The notes below the pieces were generated by a model. That model was given only the letters and a program-made list of their open reading frames with translations, ran no database searches and was not told the DNA's origin. From Escherichia phage vB_EcoM-Ro111lw: DNA of 64,000 nt. The stretch lies in the sequence record MH571750.1. One strand, written 5' to 3'. Made by a program: the position numbers and the translations under genes. Each line of letters begins with the position of its first letter. The stretch's first letter is position 1. Of the stretch, positions 20,161 to 64,000 are shown piece by piece.

Positions 20161-20460
20161 TTAATCTGCCAGCCTTAAATTAAAATTAACACCAAATTTT
20201 TCGCATACTTCCAACATATACTCAAGGGAGACATTACCAGTGAGGTGGATTATGTTGGATACGCGAGCCTGAGAGATACCACAAATTTTAGCAACTTGCT
20301 CTTGAGAAAGACCTCTGGATTTAATCTCTCTCTTAAAACGATGTGCAACGAAGTCTCTCATTTCGTCTACATCCATTGGACAAATATAACTCTCCATTTC
20401 AGCCTCTCTGTCAGCCTCCCAATCATCTTGTGGAGCATAAGGGTCAAAAGTCTCATTCAT
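20161..20460 (-). CDS. HTH (XRE-family-like) DNA-binding protein; start moved to ATG (MNETF...)
   Basis: C-terminal helix-turn-helix LSQEQVAKICGISQARVSNIIHL; ORF-track start is a TTG, in-frame ATG at 20460. Confidence 0.6.
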   Translation of the reverse strand: MNETFDPYAPQDDWEADREAEMESYICPMDVDEMRDFVAHRFKREIKSRGLSQEQVAKICGISQARVSNIIHLTGNVSLEYMLEVCEKFGVNFNLRLAD

Positions 20461-27098: not shown

Positions 27099-27270
27099 TT
27101 TTACTCCCTCTAAAATCATTAACCTCATACATTACTGCAAAAAATTATAAAAAGCAAGTTGACAATGTACTTGACAAGGTGTTAATCTTTGCGAAGTGGG
27201 TTTTTACTTAAAAGGTTACTTAACAGTTTAACTATACAGATACTTTAAAACTCTTAAAAGATTATTTAAT

Positions 27271-27312
27271 AGCTTTTAAAAAGCTTTAAAGTATAACGTA
27301 TAGAATACGTTA
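27271..27312. promoter_or_regulatory. Two palindromes (AGCTTTT-A-AAAAGCT and AACGTAT-AGA-ATACGTT) in the divergent intergenic region; candidate operators
   Basis: Perfect 7-1-7 and 7-3-7 inverted repeats 45-85 bp upstream of the 27356 start, in AT-rich region between divergent operons. Confidence 0.4.
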
Positions 27313-27355
27313 AGATAAAAGATTAAAACTTAATAGTTACTTAAAAGAGGCTTAC

Positions 27356-38730: not shown

Positions 38731-39800
38731 TTAACCAACACCCAATCTTTTTAGGTGGTGAGAGAAAGACATTTGACTCACTTAACAAGCACTACCCAAA
38801 AATCTTTGAGCTATATAAACAACAAAAAGCGCAAGACTGGTCAGAAGATGAGTTCCCTTTTGAACAATCACGTCTTGATTTTGAGAGTGTGCCAGCATCA
38901 ATGTCAGGTGTAATGCTTGAGATTCTTAAGTGGCAGTGGGAAGCAGATACCCAAGTTGCTAAGAGTTTAGCGTTTGCTTTTGCACCATTCATCTCTGATG
39001 ACATTTATGCAACTGCAATTATGAAGCAGTCTGAGATTGAAAACTTACATGCTCTGACTTACTCAGAGATTGTAAGGCAATGTATTAAAAACCCTGAAAC
39101 AATCTTAGATGAGATTAACCAGAATGTTGCTGTACAAGACCGATTAAAAACTGTGAATCGTGTTCTTGAAGAATTACTGGATGAAGGTATAAACTATCGG
39201 CTGAGCTATGTTCGTGACTCACTTCTGGACAAAGACCCTTTACACTTCCATAAAGTGATTCTGAAAGGGTTGTTTGCAGTGACTGCACTTGAAGGTATAT
39301 CTTTTATGGCATCCTTTGCATGTACTTTTGCACTTGATGCTCAAGATAAATTTCAGGGTATTGCTCAAGCTGTCCAGAAAATTATGCTTGATGAAATCCT
39401 TCACACTAAAATTGATATTGAAGTTTTAAAAGAAACTTTAAGAGATGATGAGTGGCAGAAAGCTTTTCAACAAATTCTTCCAGAGATTAAAGTAATCTTA
39501 GATGAAGTAGTTGAAAGTGAAGAGAAATGGTCGTATTATATCTTCTCCGAAGGACGTGCTGTAGTTGGCTTAAATACAAAGCTTCTTCATGAGTGGGTTT
39601 ACTATAATGCTGCCCCATTGTATGATATGTTTGGCATTCCCAGAGATTTTGTAGCTCCTAAAGAACCACCTTTGAAGTACATGATTAAGAAGATGGAAAT
39701 TGATAAAGAGCAGAATGCTAATCAGGAGCAACAGAACGGTGCGTACCTGTTGAATACTGTTGTAGATGATTTGAATAGTGGATTTTTAGAGGTTCCTTAA
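38727..39800 (+). CDS. nrdB: Ribonucleotide reductase class Ia small subunit (start set to MINQHPIF ATG)
   Basis: Di-iron/tyrosyl-radical R2-like helices; AAGGAG RBS 7 nt before ATG; follows nrdA. Confidence 0.85.
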   Translation: MINQHPIFLGGERKTFDSLNKHYPKIFELYKQQKAQDWSEDEFPFEQSRLDFESVPASMSGVMLEILKWQWEADTQVAKSLAFAFAPFISDDIYATAIMKQSEIENLHALTYSEIVRQCIKNPETILDEINQNVAVQDRLKTVNRVLEELLDEGINYRLSYVRDSLLDKDPLHFHKVILKGLFAVTALEGISFMASFACTFALDAQDKFQGIAQAVQKIMLDEILHTKIDIEVLKETLRDDEWQKAFQQILPEIKVILDEVVESEEKWSYYIFSEGRAVVGLNTKLLHEWVYYNAAPLYDMFGIPRDFVAPKEPPLKYMIKKMEIDKEQNANQEQQNGAYLLNTVVDDLNSGFLEVP

Positions 39801-40042
39801 TGACTTATGTAATTTACTCCAAAACTGGATGCCCTCAGTGTGAGACTGCAAAGAATTTTGCAAAAGCTCGCGGTATTGACCATGTTGTGAGAATGTTAGG
39901 GCAGGACTATGAGCTATCAGACCTTATGGATATTGCACAGATGCCAGTTCGTCAGATGCCATTCATCATGAAAACTGATGGACAAAATCTAAAACCTGTT
40001 GGGACGCTACAGAATTTTATGGCAGAGGTGAATAATGCTTAA
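39800..40042 (+). CDS. Glutaredoxin (NrdC/NrdH-like redoxin)
   Basis: CPQC active site at residues 11-14 in an 80-aa protein; coupled to nrdB. Confidence 0.7.
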   Translation: MTYVIYSKTGCPQCETAKNFAKARGIDHVVRMLGQDYELSDLMDIAQMPVRQMPFIMKTDGQNLKPVGTLQNFMAEVNNA

Positions 40043-40241
40043 ACGCCTTTGGGAAGGTTTGGTTGTTGATGCACCAGCCATTGTGATTGGTATGCTTGTT
40101 GTTAACCTATTTACTGATTTTGAACAAGGTTCATTGTTTGGAGCCATGCTATTATGGGTTATCTTTGAAATATTAGAGATACAGCTAGGCATCACTGAAA
40201 AACTAAGAAAACTCGTTTCGAAGTTTTCTAAAAAGATTTAA
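40035..40241 (+). CDS. Small membrane protein
   Basis: 68 aa, two hydrophobic segments. Confidence 0.45.
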   Translation: MLKRLWEGLVVDAPAIVIGMLVVNLFTDFEQGSLFGAMLLWVIFEILEIQLGITEKLRKLVSKFSKKI

Positions 40242-52318: not shown

Positions 52319-52341
52319 AGGCTGCTTCGGCGGCCTTTTTT
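52319..52341 (+). terminator. Rho-independent terminator
   Basis: AGGCTGC-ttcg-GCGGCCT followed by TTTTTT. Confidence 0.6.
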
Positions 52342-52342
52342 A

Positions 52343-52371
52343 TTTGTATTTTGTGCAGAGTGCTGTATAAT
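52343..52371 (+). promoter_or_regulatory. Candidate promoter with consensus -10 TATAAT
   Basis: TATAAT at 52366-52371 with weak -35 (TTTGTA/TTGTAT); 30 bp upstream of the SLT gene. Confidence 0.35.
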
Positions 52372-52402
52372 TGTTGTCACGATAAACTAAACAGGAGAAC
52401 CA

Positions 52403-55957: not shown

Positions 55958-56743
55958 ATGGGTATTGTAAAAATCATCAATGGTGATATCTTTGCTGCAT
56001 TTGATAAAGGTAAGTTTGACGTCATCGGTCACGGTTGCAACTGTATGAACTTAATGGGTGCAGGTATCGCTGACAAGATTTCTAAACTTTACCCAAAAGC
56101 ATATGAGACTGATACAGAAGTTTATCTGTATGCAGGTGGAATAGGCCACAAGCCCTGTGAGAATTTACTAGGCAATTTCTCTGTAGCACGTTTAAAACAA
56201 GGCCGTATAGCTAACCTTTACACTCAGCTTAAGACTGGTAAAGATGCCCGATACAGTGCTTTAGAGTCATCTTTGAAACAGCTTAACAGATACTGTGAAG
56301 TCAATCAGTTGAAGAAAGTCGGGTTACCTATGATTGGTGCAGGTATCGGTGGGCTAGACCCTCAAGCCGTCACAGTTATCATTAATCAGGTGATGAAGAG
56401 TGTAGATGTTTATCTGTATGTCTACGAAGGAGAGATGTACCACAAGTTACGCTCAGGTTGGAAGAACTACTGTGAGCCAGAATACTTTGCAGGTGTAGTA
56501 ACGTTCACAGATGATGCAGTTACCCTCTTCAGACGAAGAAAAGGTAAGATACATCAAAGTAACCCTCCGGTTGAGAAGATGTCTCTAAGTAACGCTCTAG
56601 TTACCCACCTGTCGAAGGGCAATCACAGGATAGCCGTAACATTTGGCAGTGATGCAGATACATATATCTATGCAAGAACTGATGAGGATATCGAGACGGT
56701 CTTCTCTTCATCGGAAGTTACCTTCTTAGACGCAAAGAACTAA
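55958..56743 (+). CDS. Macro-domain (ADP-ribose-binding/processing) protein with about 100-aa C-terminal extension
   Basis: N-terminus VKIINGDIF...DVIGHGCNCMNLMGAGIADKI parallels the macro-domain pattern (GDIT...D.IVNAAN...GGGV..AI); RBS GGGAGAG. Confidence 0.5.
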   Translation: MGIVKIINGDIFAAFDKGKFDVIGHGCNCMNLMGAGIADKISKLYPKAYETDTEVYLYAGGIGHKPCENLLGNFSVARLKQGRIANLYTQLKTGKDARYSALESSLKQLNRYCEVNQLKKVGLPMIGAGIGGLDPQAVTVIINQVMKSVDVYLYVYEGEMYHKLRSGWKNYCEPEYFAGVVTFTDDAVTLFRRRKGKIHQSNPPVEKMSLSNALVTHLSKGNHRIAVTFGSDADTYIYARTDEDIETVFSSSEVTFLDAKN

Positions 56744-56827
56744 GAAACTCTGTATAATATTCACAATATACTAAGCCTTTCTTATCTGGTAAATTTTTCA
56801 GGTAAGGAGGGCTTTTTTATTTCAGGA

Positions 56828-57010
56828 TTGTGCAGGTAGAGTTCTGGACAGAAATCTGTAGAGAAAATTTTGAACTCCAAAGAGAAAATTCATTTTCAAA
56901 CTGTGCAGGTAATCTCCAAAGAGCTTTTTCATTTTCAAAACGTGCAGACCCCGCTCAGGTCGGGCAAGAAAAATCATTTTAGAATTGTGCAGGTAGGTGG
57001 ATGCAGGTGG
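56828..57010 (+). repeat. Tandem degenerate repeats (about 40-45 bp unit) with core CATTTTCAAA-N-TGTGCAGGTA in a 520-bp non-coding gap
   Basis: TGTGCAGGTA-like cores at about 56830, 56902, 56941, 56987 and 57001; AAAGAG...TTCATTTTCAAA precedes three of them. Confidence 0.6.
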
Positions 57011-57171
57011 GGATGTCGCCATTTCTCACAAGGCTAACACATCTGGAAATAAAAGTCAACAGAAAAATTTGTAGCGGATTGAAAAATAATTCTTGATTGT
57101 AGTTCTGTTTTGTGGTAGTCGCGTGCGCCCGTTTCATTACAATTTTTGCAAAAATATTTTTAAAATTCCTA

Positions 57172-57263
57172 TTGACTCTTTGAGTATGGTTATCTAATAT
57201 TTGCATCAACGGGGAGGGAATGACCTTCCCCACTAAGTAAAGTCCTAAACTGGAGATTCTAAA
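57172..57263 (+). promoter_or_regulatory. Type-A cassette 1: TTGACT-N17-TAATAT promoter plus conserved hairpin leader and RBS
   Basis: Leader TCAACGGGGAGGGAATGACCTTCCCCACTAAGTAAAGTCCTAAACTGGAGATTCTAAA immediately before ATG 57264; GGGAA-tgacc-TTCCC hairpin. Confidence 0.6.
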
Positions 57264-57644
57264 ATGGCATACCGTGCACCTAAATTCATCAACAAAGACA
57301 ACTTCCGCAACGCACTGGAGAAGTCACTTGATGAAAAATTTAACGGCAAATTGATTGTTGTTCACGCATTCAATTTTAAGTATGATATTAACGGGAATAA
57401 AATCAACCATTACACGGCAACCATGTTAGATGGTACGCTATCAAGTGAAAAAGCCGTACTGAATGCACTTGCAGGACGTGGTAAAAACCTGATAAGCTGC
57501 AATAAGAGACGTTATCAAGGTGGCGCATATGGTTATGATGATGCTGTTTACCATCTTGAAAATATGGGCTATTCAGTGGAGAAAGCTGGAGCGTCTCAAA
57601 TAATTGGTAGTGATGGTTATGTGACAATCTTCAAAATTAAATAA
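57264..57644 (+). CDS. Hypothetical small protein (cassette-associated)
   Basis: 126 aa, ATG after conserved leader. Confidence 0.55.
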   Translation: MAYRAPKFINKDNFRNALEKSLDEKFNGKLIVVHAFNFKYDINGNKINHYTATMLDGTLSSEKAVLNALAGRGKNLISCNKRRYQGGAYGYDDAVYHLENMGYSVEKAGASQIIGSDGYVTIFKIK

Positions 57645-57650
57645 AAGTAC

Positions 57651-57730
57651 TTTACAAGGGGCTTATAGTTCGATAAAGTAAGCCCCAGATAAAGAGCTTT
57701 ATCACTCAATCCTAAATTGGAGATTCAAAA
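57651..57730 (+). promoter_or_regulatory. Type-B cassette 1: TTTACA + GGGGCTTA...TAAGCCCC hairpin (with embedded -10-like TAAAGT) + conserved leader
   Basis: 8-bp GC-rich stem; followed by AGATAAAGAGCTTTATCACTCAATCCTAAATTGGAGATTCAAAA then ATG 57731. Confidence 0.55.
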
Positions 57731-57988
57731 ATGGCTATTATCAAAAACGTTGTAGTTCCTGCAAAAACTCGTGATGACGCTCGCATCATGGCGAAAAAGT
57801 TAGGCGGGAAAGTGGTTGACAACGGAAAACAATCTGCTGTAAGATGGAGCGTGAAGGCTGATAAGCAACTAACCTTAAAACGCAGTTCAAACAATCTTTT
57901 TAAAGGTGTAAAATCACTCGGTAAAGTGAACGTGTTTACCAAAAAAGGCTATAAAATGCACTTATCATTAACTGGCAATTTAATCTGA
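57731..57988 (+). CDS. Hypothetical small basic protein (cassette-associated)
   Basis: 85 aa. Confidence 0.5.
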   Translation: MAIIKNVVVPAKTRDDARIMAKKLGGKVVDNGKQSAVRWSVKADKQLTLKRSSNNLFKGVKSLGKVNVFTKKGYKMHLSLTGNLI

Positions 57989-57996
57989 TAAAGTAC

Positions 57997-58078
57997 TTTA
58001 CAGGGGGCTTAAAAGCTGATATCTTAAGCCCCAGATAAAGAGCTTTACCACTCAATCCTTAAACTAGGAGATTCAAAA
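57997..58078 (+). promoter_or_regulatory. Type-B cassette 2 (TTTACA + GGGGCTTAA...TTAAGCCCC hairpin + leader)
   Basis: 9-bp stem, -10-like TATCTT in 3' arm, conserved leader to ATG 58079. Confidence 0.55.
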
Positions 58079-59301: not shown

Positions 59302-59390
59302 CACTGATTTTTAGATAGATTAAATTACACATCAACGGGGAGGGAACAACCTTCCCACTAAATAAAGTCCTTAAACTAGGAGATTCTAAA
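59298..59390 (+). promoter_or_regulatory. Type-A cassette 2: TTGACA-N17-TAAATT promoter plus conserved hairpin leader
   Basis: Consensus -35; leader ACACATCAACGGGGAGGGAACAACCTTCCCACTAAATAAAGTCCTTAAACTAGGAGATTCTAAA before ATG 59391. Confidence 0.65.
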
Positions 59391-59663
59391 ATGTATACTA
59401 CTAACAATGGCCTCACTTTGAACGTCACACTACGTCACTATGTAGATGGTGTCATGCACTTTGAAGATTTACAAGCTGAACAACATATCTTAGATTGGCA
59501 AGTCGCAGGACTCCAAAAAACTGCTACGGGATACGGTAAAAAGATTCCAACTAGTTGGAAAGTTCACTATGAAGGACGTTTGCGCAGAATTTATCAAGAT
59601 GTGCAAAGCAATAGCGCATCGAGTTACATTATAGTAAAAGGTGAAAAACTGCATTTAGTATAA
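59391..59663 (+). CDS. Hypothetical small protein (cassette-associated)
   Basis: 90 aa. Confidence 0.5.
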   Translation: MYTTNNGLTLNVTLRHYVDGVMHFEDLQAEQHILDWQVAGLQKTATGYGKKIPTSWKVHYEGRLRRIYQDVQSNSASSYIIVKGEKLHLV

Positions 59664-59668
59664 AGTAC

Positions 59669-59748
59669 TTTACATGGGGTTTAAAAGTTGGTATCTTAAG
59701 CCCCAGATAAAGAGCTTTACCCCTAAATCCTAAATTGGAGATTCAAAA
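59669..59748 (+). promoter_or_regulatory. Type-B cassette 4 (TTTACA + GGGGTTTAA...TTAAGCCCC hairpin + leader)
   Basis: Stem retains pairing through a G-U wobble; conserved leader to ATG 59749. Confidence 0.55.
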
Positions 59749-63129: not shown

Positions 63130-63560
63130 CCCATTAAAACGCTCTATAAAGCTCTATAACAGCCTTATCAACCTAACTTAAGCAATCATATTAACCCACT
63201 CTAAAAAGCCCTTTATAGAGCTTCCCAGAGCCTTAAAAGAATCTTATAAGGGTGAAAGCTTATAGGCTGGCTAGTATCTTGTGAATAACTAAACAATCCC
63301 CTTGATAGTCACTAAAAAGCATGTTATAGGGGCTATAAAGTTACTTCAAAGTAACGTAAAAAAGGCTATAAAGTTACGTAAATGCTAGCCCCCTTAACAT
63401 TTTCTTAACAATTTCTTAACAAACCCTACATAGTTATGCTTTTAAGGCACTTGTTAGAGACTTGTTAGCCCCTTGTTAAATCTCTGTTAAGACCACGTAA
63501 AAGCCTTGTAAGAGTCTTTGGCATAGCCTTTAAAGCTCCTATAAAGCCCTATAAAGAGGT
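63130..63560. repeat. (G)CTATAAAG repeat family and palindromes in ORF-free region
   Basis: GCTCTATAAAGCTCTATAAC, inverted CTTTATAGAGC, GGCTATAAAGTTAC twice, CCTATAAAG twice; palindrome GTTACTTCAAAGTAAC and TTACGTAA. Confidence 0.6.
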
Positions 63561-64000
63561 GTCTGTATAGTTGGGGTGTAGATACTAGGAAGAGGTTTAA
63601 AAGAGCTTACAAGGAGCTATAGAGAGCTTTTAAGAGGTATGTTTAAGAGTTCACTAAGAAAGGAAAGGGAACGATAAGGAAGAGATAGTGACCATGTTAA
63701 TAGCTTGTTAAAAAGATTAAACACTTGTTAGAAACTTGTTAATTATCTAATTGGTATTGTTACCAATCCCTAACAAAATAACTCTTTAAAATTAACTTGT
63801 TAGCTCTTGTTAGTCATCTGTTAAGCCTCTGTAAAGACTATTCAGCACTTGTTAGAAAACTGTTAAGCCCTTGTTAGTTCTGTTAAGAAACTGTTAAGAC
63901 CTTTGAAGAGTTGTTAAGAAGATGTGAGAACTGTTAAGAGATTGTTAAGGATATTTTAAAATTTTGCAAAGTACTTGTAAGGGAGCTGTTAAGGGCTACC
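63404..64000. repeat. Array of about 20-25 CTTGTTAG / CTGTTAAG octamer repeats, many phased at 10-12 bp; continues to window end
   Basis: Direct copies at about 63450, 63461, 63472, 63484, 63705, 63724, 63735, 63796, 63806, 63818, 63848, 63860, 63870, 63880, 63891, 63910, 63931, 63942, 63986, plus inverted TTAACAA copies at 63404-63423; no ORF of 60 aa or more on either strand. Confidence 0.7.

What the first reader, a model, noticed from the sequence alone, without database searches (positions are those of the whole stretch)
56744..57263. 520-bp non-coding gap with tandem repeats carrying a TGTGCAGGTA core
Between the macro-domain gene and the first cassette there are four to five degenerate tandem units (about 40-45 bp) of the form AAAGAG..TTCATTTTCAAA-N-TGTGCAGGTAATCTCC. 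The repeats do not match sigma70, sigma54, CRP or LexA consensus as read by eye. They could be binding sites for a phage-encoded regulator, a cluster of phage-specific promoters, or a structured non-coding RNA locus. No tRNA-like T-loop or cloverleaf was seen.
Basis: seen in the sequence. Interest (0 to 1): 0.5.

Follow-up and report, generated by a model that had tools for sequence, protein, structure and literature searches.

The report
Conserved repeat array in Felix O1-like phages
A non-coding stretch of a Felix O1-type phage genome holds four same-direction copies of a ~36-bp DNA motif that are kept almost unchanged across the whole phage subfamily; this looks like a docking platform for a DNA-binding protein, and nobody has described it or knows what it does.

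Summary
The window is a Felixounavirus. The gap 56744-57263 lies between a macro-domain gene and the first small early "cassette" gene.

It contains a strong intrinsic terminator, then four co-oriented ~36-bp units: A/T tract, TCATTTT, 6 nt, GTGCAG(GTA). Starts are 56804, 56877, 56916 and 56961. Degenerate TGTAG-type copies follow, then a strain-variable block, a conserved block and a sigma-70 promoter.

The motif occurs nowhere else in the ~88-kb genome. The same array, in the same place, is found in Felixouna-, Susp-, Moogle- and Kolesnikvirus. It is also in an uncultivated relative whose proteins are only 30-44% identical. Within Felixounavirus it is more invariant than the neighbouring coding sequence.

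It is not coding, not a tRNA or Rfam RNA, not structured RNA, not a set of sigma-70 promoters, and not the terminal repeat, which is at 63388-64000. One orthologous unit flipped its tract from T5 to A5, which argues for DNA-level rather than RNA-level function.

Best reading: an iteron-like protein-binding array at the border of the right-terminal early-gene block, about 7-9% of the genome from the end. Its role is inferred only; it could be a boundary or regulatory complex, a replication origin, or a T5-like DNA-entry stop. I found no description of it.

The parts
55958..56743 (+). Upstream gene: macro-domain protein ('phosphatase' in public records), last gene of the long rightward operon
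   Evidence: Pfam Macro PF01661, E = 1.1e-7; PHROG 335; same position in all relatives
56773..56822 (+). Rho-independent terminator: long hairpin 56773-56814 plus T-run. It is t13 of the Felix O1 paper. Its T-run doubles as the A/T tract of unit U0.
   Evidence: Terminator scan; listed as t13, -21.8 kcal/mol, in PMC3185647; annotated in AYO145A and ASO1B
56804..56839 (+). Unit U0: AAGGAGGG-CTTTTT-TATTTC-AGGATT-GTGCAGGTAG
   Evidence: Weight-matrix score 42.9 bits; core 29.8 bits; present in every relative
56851..56874 (+). Degenerate partial unit between U0 and U1 (GAAATCTGTAGAGAAAATTTTGAA), with a TGTAG-type core
   Evidence: the repeat finder family D5; conserved within Felixounavirus
56877..56912 (+). 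Unit U1: CCAAAGAG-AAAAT-TCATTTT-CAAACT-GTGCAGGTAA (A-type tract)
   Evidence: 46.0 bits; essentially invariant in 24 distinct Felixounavirus sequences
56916..56951 (+). Unit U2: CCAAAGAG-CTTTT-TCATTTT-CAAAAC-GTGCAGACCC (T-type tract). The orthologous unit has an A5 tract in the L319-type variants.
   Evidence: 44.8 bits; T5-to-A5 flip of the orthologous unit
56961..56996 (+). Unit U3: CGGGCAAG-AAAAA-TCATTTT-AGAATT-GTGCAGGTAG (A-type tract)
   Evidence: 40.4 bits; invariant
56997..57050 (.). Strain-variable block. In most relatives it is replaced, at equal length, by a C-rich tract (CCCCTCTCCCCCTCTTACTCCCCC). Here it ends in an inverted partial unit, ATCTGGAAATAAAA.
   Evidence: Alignment; footprint; inverted repeat I1
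57051..57130 (+). Conserved block B, with two further degenerate units (GAAAAATTTGTAGCGG at 57063-57078; GAAAAATAATTCTTGATTGTAGTT at 57081-57104)
   Evidence: Invariant at 57054-57093 and 57104-57113; the repeat finder family D3; conserved in Mooglevirus
57145..57200 (+). A/T-rich UP-like stretch plus the sigma-70 promoter of the first cassette (TTGACT 57172-57177, 17 nt, TAATAT 57195-57200)
   Evidence: Promoter scan; annotated promoter in ASO1B; conserved TTGAC and TA..T columns
57204..57263 (+). 5' UTR shared by the cassettes: hairpin GGGGAGGG (57211-57218) / CCTTCCCC (57224-57231) plus the Shine-Dalgarno sequence GGAG (57252-57255)
   Evidence: Copies at 59330, 60194, 61126, 61692 and 62615

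Best explanation
The repeats are a cis-acting DNA element, not a gene. They form an array of four co-oriented, non-identical binding sites of about 36 bp, like iterons or operators.

Each site has three parts: a 5-bp A- or T-tract, probably read through groove shape; then TCATTTT; then, 6 bp further on, GTGCAG(GTA), probably read base by base. Three or four degenerate TGTAG-type copies flank the strong sites.

I infer that a sequence-specific DNA-binding protein occupies the sites cooperatively. It is most likely phage-encoded, because the core changed in concert between phage lineages. The resulting complex would sit between the terminator that ends the long rightward operon and the first strong host-type promoter of the right-terminal block of small early genes.

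The role I think most likely is a boundary or regulatory complex for that terminal early module. It would insulate the module from, or couple it to, what happens upstream. This could mean blocking read-through, or timing the first early promoter through the fixed-length upstream region.

Shown here: the anatomy, the uniqueness in the genome, the deep conservation, the fixed architecture, and the absence of coding or RNA signals. Inferred: that a protein binds, that it is phage-encoded, and the role.
For: Uniqueness and strength:
- The four sites score 40-46 bits; nothing else in the window or in the remaining 24 kb of a relative's genome exceeds chance.

Deep conservation:
- 288-290 phage records carry the region.
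- Every Felixounavirus, Suspvirus and Mooglevirus locus examined has the units at fixed offsets: about 73/39/45 bp, and 75/41/45 bp in Moogle.
- Erwinia phages have four units at 37/37/39 bp.
- An uncultivated relative with collinear proteins only 30-44% identical still has five units after its macro gene.
- Against Erwinia phages the array is one of a few DNA-level islands of similarity.
- Across 24 distinct Felixounavirus sequences, 56874-56947 and 56955-56996 are invariant, while third codon positions of the macro gene vary.

DNA level rather than RNA level:
- Orthologous unit U2 has T5 in most phages but A5 in the L319-type variants, with the rest unchanged.
- The array lies right after a strong terminator.
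- No RNA structure or covariation was found.

A co-evolving partner:
- The core is TGTGCA-GG-TAGG in all units of Felix, Susp and Moogle phages, but TGTGCA-TAGG in all units of Erwinia phages and most units of the uncultivated relative.

An integrated module:
- Gap length is nearly constant at 500-528 bp, even where the variable block is swapped at equal length.
Against: - No binding protein is identified.
- The only annotated regulator, the XRE HTH at 20161-20460, is missing from the Erwinia phages.
- Neighbouring genes have no DNA-binding domain detectable by Pfam.
- The strong units end 176 bp upstream of the promoter's -35, which is far for a classical operator.
- Unit spacing is not helically phased.
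- Predicted intrinsic curvature is average.
- The concerted core change could also come from gene conversion among the repeats, without any co-evolving protein.
- A knockout screen of phage Bas63 describes the ~46-66 kb segment, which contains the gap, as uniformly non-essential on four laboratory hosts. Any role is therefore dispensable or redundant there. Per-site data were not available.
Confidence: 0.4

Rival explanations
1. Iteron-type origin of replication. An initiator binds the four repeats and opens the A/T-rich DNA about 140 bp downstream, helped by transcription from the strong promoter at 57172. The phage's T7-like primase-helicase then loads.
For: Direct repeats unique in the genome are the classical signature of phage and plasmid origins. 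An A/T-rich stretch (57132-57172) lies nearby, among the 0.2-0.7% least stable 40-80-mers of the window. A strong promoter is adjacent. The cores in Erwinia phages and the uncultivated relative are 5-7 of 8 matches (most 7 of 8) to the DnaA-box complement TGTGNAWAA (consensus as quoted in 10.1101/866236).
Against: The least stable DNA in the window is elsewhere: 27.2-27.35 kb, the divergent region next to the DNA polymerase gene. Spacing is 37-45 bp, not about 22 bp. A strain-variable 54-bp block separates the repeats from the A/T-rich DNA. No initiator-like gene is adjacent. The Felix-type core matches the DnaA box at only 5 of 8 positions. GC skew shows no switch here. The region lies in the 'uniformly non-essential' segment of Bas63.
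Confidence: 0.2
2. DNA-entry checkpoint analogous to the T5 injection stop signal. The right end enters first, and the ~6.4-7.6 kb of autonomous early cassettes is expressed. Entry then pauses when the array is caught by a host or early phage protein.
For: The array lies 6.4 kb from the terminal repeat, about 7-9% of the genome from the right end, in both Felix and Erwinia phages. T5 transfers 7.9% of its genome in the first step. As in T5, it is a conserved untranslated repeat region kept more strictly than nearby coding DNA. The terminal block consists of self-contained promoter-gene units that could be expressed whatever the entry polarity. The cores are DnaA-box-like in two lineages.
Against: I found no report of two-step transfer in any Felix O1-like phage. 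Which end enters first is unknown. The array is not inside the terminal repeat. It lacks the paired DnaA boxes and large inverted repeats of T5. No A1/A2-like genes were detected among the ten neighbouring genes scanned, six of them cassette genes. T5's signal is thought to be essential, whereas this segment tolerates insertions in Bas63.
Confidence: 0.08
3. Repetitive non-coding RNA made by read-through. It would act as a decoy or sponge, for example a mimic of a type III antitoxin (ToxI-like tandem 34-45-nt repeats) or of another RNA-binding target of host defence.
For: The unit length of 37-45 nt matches type III antitoxin repeats (from memory of the ToxIN, CptIN and AbiQ literature). The array sits in the accessory, defence-related part of the genome, after the NAD salvage, rII, polynucleotide kinase and macro genes. 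The predicted RNA is unusually unstructured, as a single-stranded protein-binding RNA might be.
Against: The array follows a strong terminator, and no + strand promoter was found between the terminator and the array. The units are only 71-82% alike, and each orthologous unit keeps its own sequence; they are not homogenised. A T5-to-A5 flip in an orthologous unit would change the RNA completely. Rfam found nothing, even at E <= 10. No similar repeats occur in 72,556 plasmids or 5,426 E. coli genomes. No toxin-like gene lies downstream.
Confidence: 0.07
4. Four tandem promoters of a phage-specific class, read by modified host RNA polymerase and driving the downstream early genes.
For: The units are long contiguous conserved motifs, all pointing toward the downstream genes. 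Tandem early promoters are known near the ends of other phage genomes (T7 A1-A3, from memory).
Against: The motif occurs nowhere else in the genome, so it is not a promoter class. No -35/-10 combination fits on either strand (and reading of the sequence). A canonical promoter already serves the downstream gene. The Felix O1 paper reports no phage RNA polymerase and no known sigma modifier.
Confidence: 0.05
5. A functionless relic: serial duplications of the terminator tail and its downstream sequence.
For: The T-type units resemble the CTTTTT(C/T)ATTT tails of this phage's terminators. U0 is literally fused to one.
Against: The array has been retained, with the same order and orientation, in lineages whose proteins are only 30-44% identical. 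It is more invariant than synonymous sites next door.
Confidence: 0.03

Closest known systems
Iterons of phage and plasmid replication origins (lambda ori, P1, T4 oriE; from general knowledge)
   Same: Several co-oriented, non-identical direct repeats form a single locus in the genome, next to A/T-rich DNA and a promoter, and are conserved as DNA rather than as RNA or protein.
   Different: Spacing is 37-45 bp (73 bp between U0 and U1), not about 22 bp. The unit is bipartite and about 36 bp long. No initiator gene is adjacent. A variable block separates the repeats from the A/T-rich DNA. The region with the lowest duplex stability is elsewhere (27.2 kb).
Injection stop signal (iss) region of phage T5 (Davison, bioRxiv 10.1101/866236)
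   Same: Both are large untranslated, repeat-rich regions, conserved more strictly than neighbouring genes. Both lie about 8% of the genome from one end, at the inner border of a block of early host-takeover genes with strong host promoters.
   Different: T5's region lies inside a 10-kb terminal repeat and is built from large inverted repeats with eight paired DnaA boxes. Here the terminal repeat is only about 0.6 kb and lies 6.4 kb away. The units are direct repeats, and the Felix core is not a DnaA box. I found no report of two-step entry for this subfamily.
sopC centromere of the F plasmid (12 tandem 43-bp repeats bound by SopB; from memory)
   Same: A tandem array with a period of about 40 bp, in which each unit carries one protein-binding site.
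   Different: sopC units are nearly identical and contain an inverted repeat. No partition genes are known or expected in a virulent phage.
ToxI-type (type III) antitoxin repeat arrays and phage pseudo-ToxI (from memory)
   Same: Tandem non-coding repeats of 34-45 nt; phages are known to carry mimics.
   Different: Those arrays are transcribed from their own promoter, are nearly identical, fold into defined RNA structures, and precede a terminator and a toxin gene. None of this holds here.

Membership tests
Iteron-type replication origin | Cluster of co-oriented direct repeats, unique in the replicon | tested here: met
   Four units at 40-46 bits and nothing else above chance in about 88 kb
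Iteron-type replication origin | Repeats spaced at about two helical turns so that bound initiators lie on one face | tested here: not met
   Spacing is 73/39/45 bp here and 37/37/39 bp in Erwinia phages
Iteron-type replication origin | Directly adjacent, exceptionally unstable A/T-rich unwinding element | tested here: inconclusive
   57132-57172 is in the top 0.2-0.7% least stable, but it lies 136 bp away across a variable block. The window's minimum is at 27.2 kb.
Iteron-type replication origin | Initiator gene in or next to the origin | tested here: not met
   The upstream gene is a macro-domain protein. Downstream and upstream small genes have no Pfam match.
Iteron-type replication origin | Replication actually starts there | not testable with these tools
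   Needs marker-frequency sequencing or 2-D gels
T5-type injection stop signal | Conserved untranslated repeat region at the inner edge of the first ~8% of the genome to enter | tested here: inconclusive
   The position 7-9% from the right end and the conservation are met. Which end enters first is unknown.
T5-type injection stop signal | Located within a long terminal repeat | tested here: not met
   The terminal repeat is about 0.6 kb, at 63388-64000, which is 6.4 kb from the array
T5-type injection stop signal | Paired DnaA boxes inside large inverted repeats | tested here: not met
   The Felix core TGTGCAGGT matches TGTGNAWAA at 5 of 8 positions, and the units are direct repeats. Erwinia and L300 cores reach 5-7 of 8.
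T5-type injection stop signal | Two-step DNA transfer dependent on early proteins (A1/A2) | not testable with these tools
   No experimental report found. Ten neighbouring genes, six of them cassette genes, have no Pfam match.
Type III antitoxin RNA / phage pseudo-antitoxin | Tandem 34-45-nt repeats | tested here: met
   Periods of 37-45 nt
Type III antitoxin RNA / phage pseudo-antitoxin | Own promoter upstream; terminator and toxin gene downstream | tested here: not met
   The terminator lies upstream of the array. The downstream gene has its own promoter and no toxin family match.
Type III antitoxin RNA / phage pseudo-antitoxin | Near-identical repeats with a defined RNA fold; a bacterial counterpart to mimic | tested here: not met
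   Unit identity is 71-82%. Folding z = +1.55. No Rfam hit. No match in plasmids or E. coli genomes.
Sigma-70 promoter cluster | -35 and -10 hexamers at 16-18 bp in each unit | tested here: not met
   The scan finds none inside 56820-57000 on either strand
Structured non-coding RNA / tRNA | Covariance-model match, or a stable conserved fold with compensatory changes | tested here: not met
   Rfam and ARAGORN are negative. RNAalifold gives -4.7 kcal/mol with no meaningful covariation.
Direct terminal repeat / packaging end | Sequence present at both physical ends of virion DNA | tested here: not met
   The PhageTerm-defined repeat of Pr103Blw maps to 63388-64000, not to the gap

The most novel reading that the evidence does not exclude
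Felix O1-like phages deliver their DNA right end first and pause. The repeat array would be the cis-acting stop or anchor that defines a first-transfer segment of about 7-9% carrying the autonomous early cassettes. This would be a second, independently built version of the T5 two-step injection system, in a myovirus with only a 0.6-kb terminal repeat.
Probability: 0.08. Interest if true: 0.8.

Novelty: new variant of a known kind. Interest (0 to 1): 0.45.

Why it matters
Felix O1 and its relatives are classical typing phages and are now widely used for biocontrol and therapy. How their transcription is timed, where they start replication and how their DNA enters the cell are all unknown; the Felix O1 genome paper says so explicitly.

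This array is the most strikingly conserved non-coding feature at the border of their early-gene block, and public annotations currently cover it with spurious ORFs. It gives a defined 200-bp target for pull-down, deletion and mapping experiments, which could reveal the regulator or initiator that organises the early phase.

It also matters for engineering. The cassette region next to it is the natural place to insert payloads, so it is useful to know which flanking DNA must be kept.

Tried and rejected
1. Terminal repeat or packaging end. Rejected: the repeat defined by PhageTerm in Pr103Blw maps to 63388-64000.
2. tRNA or a known RNA family. Nothing found at gathering thresholds or at E <= 10.
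3. Structured RNA. Folding z-scores are +1.55 and -0.11, and there is no consensus fold.
4. Coding. The ORFs are inconsistent between records, indels are not multiples of three, and there are no family hits apart from a marginal PHROG match at E = 2e-4.
5. Sigma-70 promoters. None lie in the units. By eye, the sigma-54, sigma-E, CRP, LexA, Fis, IHF, Fur and MarA-box consensus sequences recalled from memory do not fit consistently across units.
6. Rho loading site. The array has G > C. The C-rich tract that would fit is absent from this window.
7. Intrinsic curvature. It is average under a wedge model whose parameters I recalled from memory.
8. Bacterial counterpart. blastn against plasmids and E. 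coli genomes found nothing.
9. More distant carriers. Two-unit pattern scans of IMG/VR and of metagenomes returned only Ounavirinae-like contigs, one new distant lineage (L300), and unrelated satellites or coding repeats.
10. The HTH protein as the universal binder. It is absent from Erwinia phage Roscha1 by phmmer and from all 28 Erwinia phage records by tblastn.
11. Literature. I found no description of the repeats, no transcriptome and no origin mapping for this subfamily. The phiEa21-4 genome paper could not be read. Per-gene PhageMaP scores were not available.

Full report
**What the window is.** The region 55900-58000 matches 228 phage records at 80-99% identity, nearly all Escherichia or Salmonella Felixounavirus. 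The window is therefore part of a Felix O1-like genome of about 88 kb. The terminal repeat that PhageTerm defined in phage Pr103Blw (581 bp; PMC8303462) is annotated at both ends of MW481326. It maps to window 63388-64000. A 608-bp repeat was shown experimentally with Bal31 in UAB_Phi87 (PMC4837284). The right end of the window is thus the physical right end of the virion DNA, and the gap under study lies 6.4-7.2 kb inside it.

**The observation.** The gap 56744-57263 lies between a macro-domain gene at 55958-56743 (Pfam Macro) and a 126-aa gene at 57264.
- The exact 10-mer TGTGCAGGTA occurs three times in 64 kb, all within 170 bp. With one mismatch there are 12 matches against 4.5 +/- 2.2 expected.
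- The repeat finder aligns 34-nt copies at 56875, 56914 and 56959 (82% and 71% identity; spacing 39 and 45 bp), and a fourth at 56808.
- Tandem Repeats Finder does not report the array.
- A 36-nt weight matrix built from 59 distinct units of related phages scores the four sites 40-46 bits. The next best site in the window scores 13.4. Nothing reaches 12 bits in the first 45 kb of Pr103Blw, which covers the part of the genome missing from the window.
- A 23-nt core matrix gives 28.8-34.4 bits against 10.8 for the next best. Shuffled sequence reaches 4.8-15.8.

The array is real, far beyond chance, and unique in the genome.

**Anatomy, left to right.**
- A long-stem intrinsic terminator at 56773-56822. 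It is t13 of the Felix O1 paper.
- Unit U0, whose A/T tract is the terminator's own T-run.
- A degenerate partial unit at 56851-56874.
- Units U1, U2 and U3 at 56877-56996.
- A 54-bp block that differs between strains.
- A conserved block (57051-57130) holding two more degenerate copies with TGTAG in place of TGTGCAG.
- An A/T-rich UP-like stretch and a TTGACT-17-TAATAT promoter at 57172-57200.
- A 5' UTR hairpin that recurs before five further cassettes.

Each strong unit reads [purine-rich 8 nt]-[A5 or T5]-TCATTTT-[6 nt]-GTGCAG(GTA). All copies, strong and degenerate, point the same way as the flanking genes.

**Conservation.**
- The gap is found in about 290 records.
- In 27 IMG/VR loci recovered through the macro gene, the units sit at identical offsets.
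- Suspvirus and Mooglevirus keep four units at about 75/41/45 bp. The Erwinia phages (Kolesnikvirus) keep four at 37/37/39 bp.
- Against Erwinia phages, blastn finds only a few islands of DNA similarity around this locus. The array is one of them.
- A pattern requiring two adjacent units recovered, besides these genera, one uncultivated 88-kb contig (L300). It has no nucleotide relative among isolates. Its genes are collinear with window 52.4-56.4 kb at only 30-44% amino-acid identity. After its shorter macro gene it carries five units, AAAAWTCATTTTAAAAACGTGCATAGG.
- Among 24 distinct Felixounavirus sequences, 56874-56947 and 56955-56996 are essentially invariant, while the macro gene shows the usual third-position variation.

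This is strong purifying selection on the nucleotide sequence itself.

**What it is not.**
- Not coding. Genera differ by 1-4-nt indels inside the array. The ORFs called there in public records differ in strand and position. They have no family support.
- Not a tRNA or any Rfam family.
- Not a structured RNA. The + strand folds worse than 188 of 200 shuffles (z = +1.55), and the - strand folds at chance level (z = -0.11). The alignment has no consensus fold.
- Not sigma-70 promoters, and not a promoter class, since the motif is unique to this locus.
- Not a Rho loading site, because G exceeds C.
- Not the terminal repeat.
- Not a copy of anything in 72,556 plasmids or 5,426 E. coli genomes.

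**DNA versus RNA.** Two observations favour a DNA-level function.
- First, the 5-nt tract before TCATTTT is A-rich in some units and T-rich in others. In the L319-type variants the orthologous unit U2 is recognisable by its unchanged flank GACCCCGCTCAGGTCGGG. There it carries AAAAA where all other phages carry TTTTT. For duplex DNA both tracts give a narrow-groove A-tract. For RNA they are unrelated sequences.
- Second, the array starts at the T-run of a strong terminator, and I found no promoter feeding it on either strand.

**A co-evolving partner?** All units of Felix, Susp and Moogle phages have TGTGCA-GG-TAGG. All units of Erwinia phages, and most units of L300, have TGTGCA-TAGG. A concerted two-base change in every unit suggests a partner that changed with it, hence a phage-encoded rather than a host protein. 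Gene conversion is an alternative explanation. The XRE-type HTH protein at 20161-20460 is present in 260 Felix, Susp and Moogle records. It is absent from all Erwinia phage records by tblastn, and from Roscha1 by phmmer. It could be the lineage-specific binder of the GG-type core, but it cannot be the universal one.

**Function.** This is inferred, not shown. The array marks the junction between the long rightward operon (replication, nucleotide metabolism, NAD salvage, rII, kinase, spanins, macro) and the right-terminal block of autonomous small early genes. The gap keeps a nearly constant length even where its middle is replaced, which suggests one integrated module from terminator to promoter. 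I therefore favour a boundary or regulatory nucleoprotein complex for the terminal early module.

An origin of replication is the main rival, but several points count against it:
- the most easily melted DNA is at 27.2-27.35 kb, beside the polymerase gene;
- the spacing is unlike that of iterons;
- no initiator gene is nearby.

A T5-like injection stop is the most interesting possibility. The position (7-9% from the end), the untranslated repeat character and the strict conservation parallel Davison's description of T5. However, the T5 hallmarks are missing, and I found no report of two-step entry for these phages.

A knockout screen of Bas63 calls the ~46-66 kb segment, which includes the gap at 64064-64571, uniformly non-essential on four laboratory strains. 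Whatever the array does is therefore dispensable or redundant there.

**Novelty.** The Felix O1 genome paper lists other direct repeats and the terminator but not this array. It states that temporal control is unknown. Searches for repeats, iterons, origins or transcriptomes in this subfamily found nothing. I rate it a real, previously undescribed variant of a familiar kind of element, a direct-repeat protein-binding array, with the binder and the role still open.

Noticed in passing
window 63388-64000: The direct terminal repeat of the genome. It holds about 20 copies of TGTTAR (as in CTTGTTAG) that cluster nowhere else in the window. It is preceded by three CTTAACA in the opposite orientation. 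These are likely terminase or end-binding sites. No small terminase subunit is known for this group.
   Followed up: partly
window 57204-57263, 59330, 60194, 61126, 61692, 62615: Near-identical 5' UTRs precede the small right-end genes: CAACGGGGAGGG...CCTTCCCC hairpin plus Shine-Dalgarno sequence. Each gene is a self-contained cassette. The repeats probably also mediate the cassette shuffling seen between strains.
   Followed up: partly
window 57643-57713, 57981-58061, 59660-59719: Inter-cassette modules in which a TTTACA-17-TAAAGT promoter is interwoven with a GGGGCTTA..TAAGCCCC hairpin spanning the -10. They are 75-80% identical at the DNA level even in Erwinia phages. The Felix O1 paper listed them only as 57-bp repeats.
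   Followed up: partly
window 56997-57050 and relatives (e.g. L003 1757-1825): Most relatives carry a C-rich tract, CCCCTCTCCCCCTCTTACTCCCCCTCTCCC, directly after the array. It is a canonical G-quadruplex motif on the - strand and has Rho-loading-like composition on the + strand. This window and AYO145A carry an equal-length unrelated replacement that ends in an inverted partial unit.
   Followed up: partly
window 27200-27350: The least stable duplex of the whole window. It is a divergent intergenic region next to the DNA polymerase gene, with a 27-nt imperfect palindrome at 27240-27294. It is a better a priori candidate for a replication origin than the repeat array.
   Followed up: partly
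L300 (IMGVR_UViG_3300045988_063805) 600-1060: An uncultivated 88-kb relative with 30-44% protein identity. Its array of five units is followed immediately by about 12 TTAACA motifs, the motif of the Felix terminal repeat. In that lineage the two kinds of repeat are adjacent.
   Followed up: partly
L263, L264, L267, L271 and record MK482689-like LMP34 (H65): Several near-full-length metagenome contigs and one isolate record end 286-415 bp after the macro gene, at or just after the strain-variable block. This is probably an assembly break at a polymorphic, low-complexity tract rather than a biological end.
   Followed up: no
public records: FO1a gp14, CPT_Moogle115, EcSzw1_16, 4Roscha1_00126, bas63_0096/0097: Gene callers place mutually inconsistent short ORFs over the array, on different strands and in different frames. 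These look like annotation artefacts, yet they are counted as 'genes' in functional screens.
   Followed up: yes
L343 about 39550-40137 (Roscha1 right end): The Erwinia phage has a run of CTTCTAA(G/A) repeats just before its right terminus. The motif differs from the Felix TGTTAR repeats.
   Followed up: no
window 52320-52375: A terminator followed by TTTTTTATTTGTATTTTGTGCAGAG, which resembles unit U0 (13 bits) and overlaps a TATAAT promoter. It may show how U0-like sequence arises from terminator tails.
   Followed up: partly
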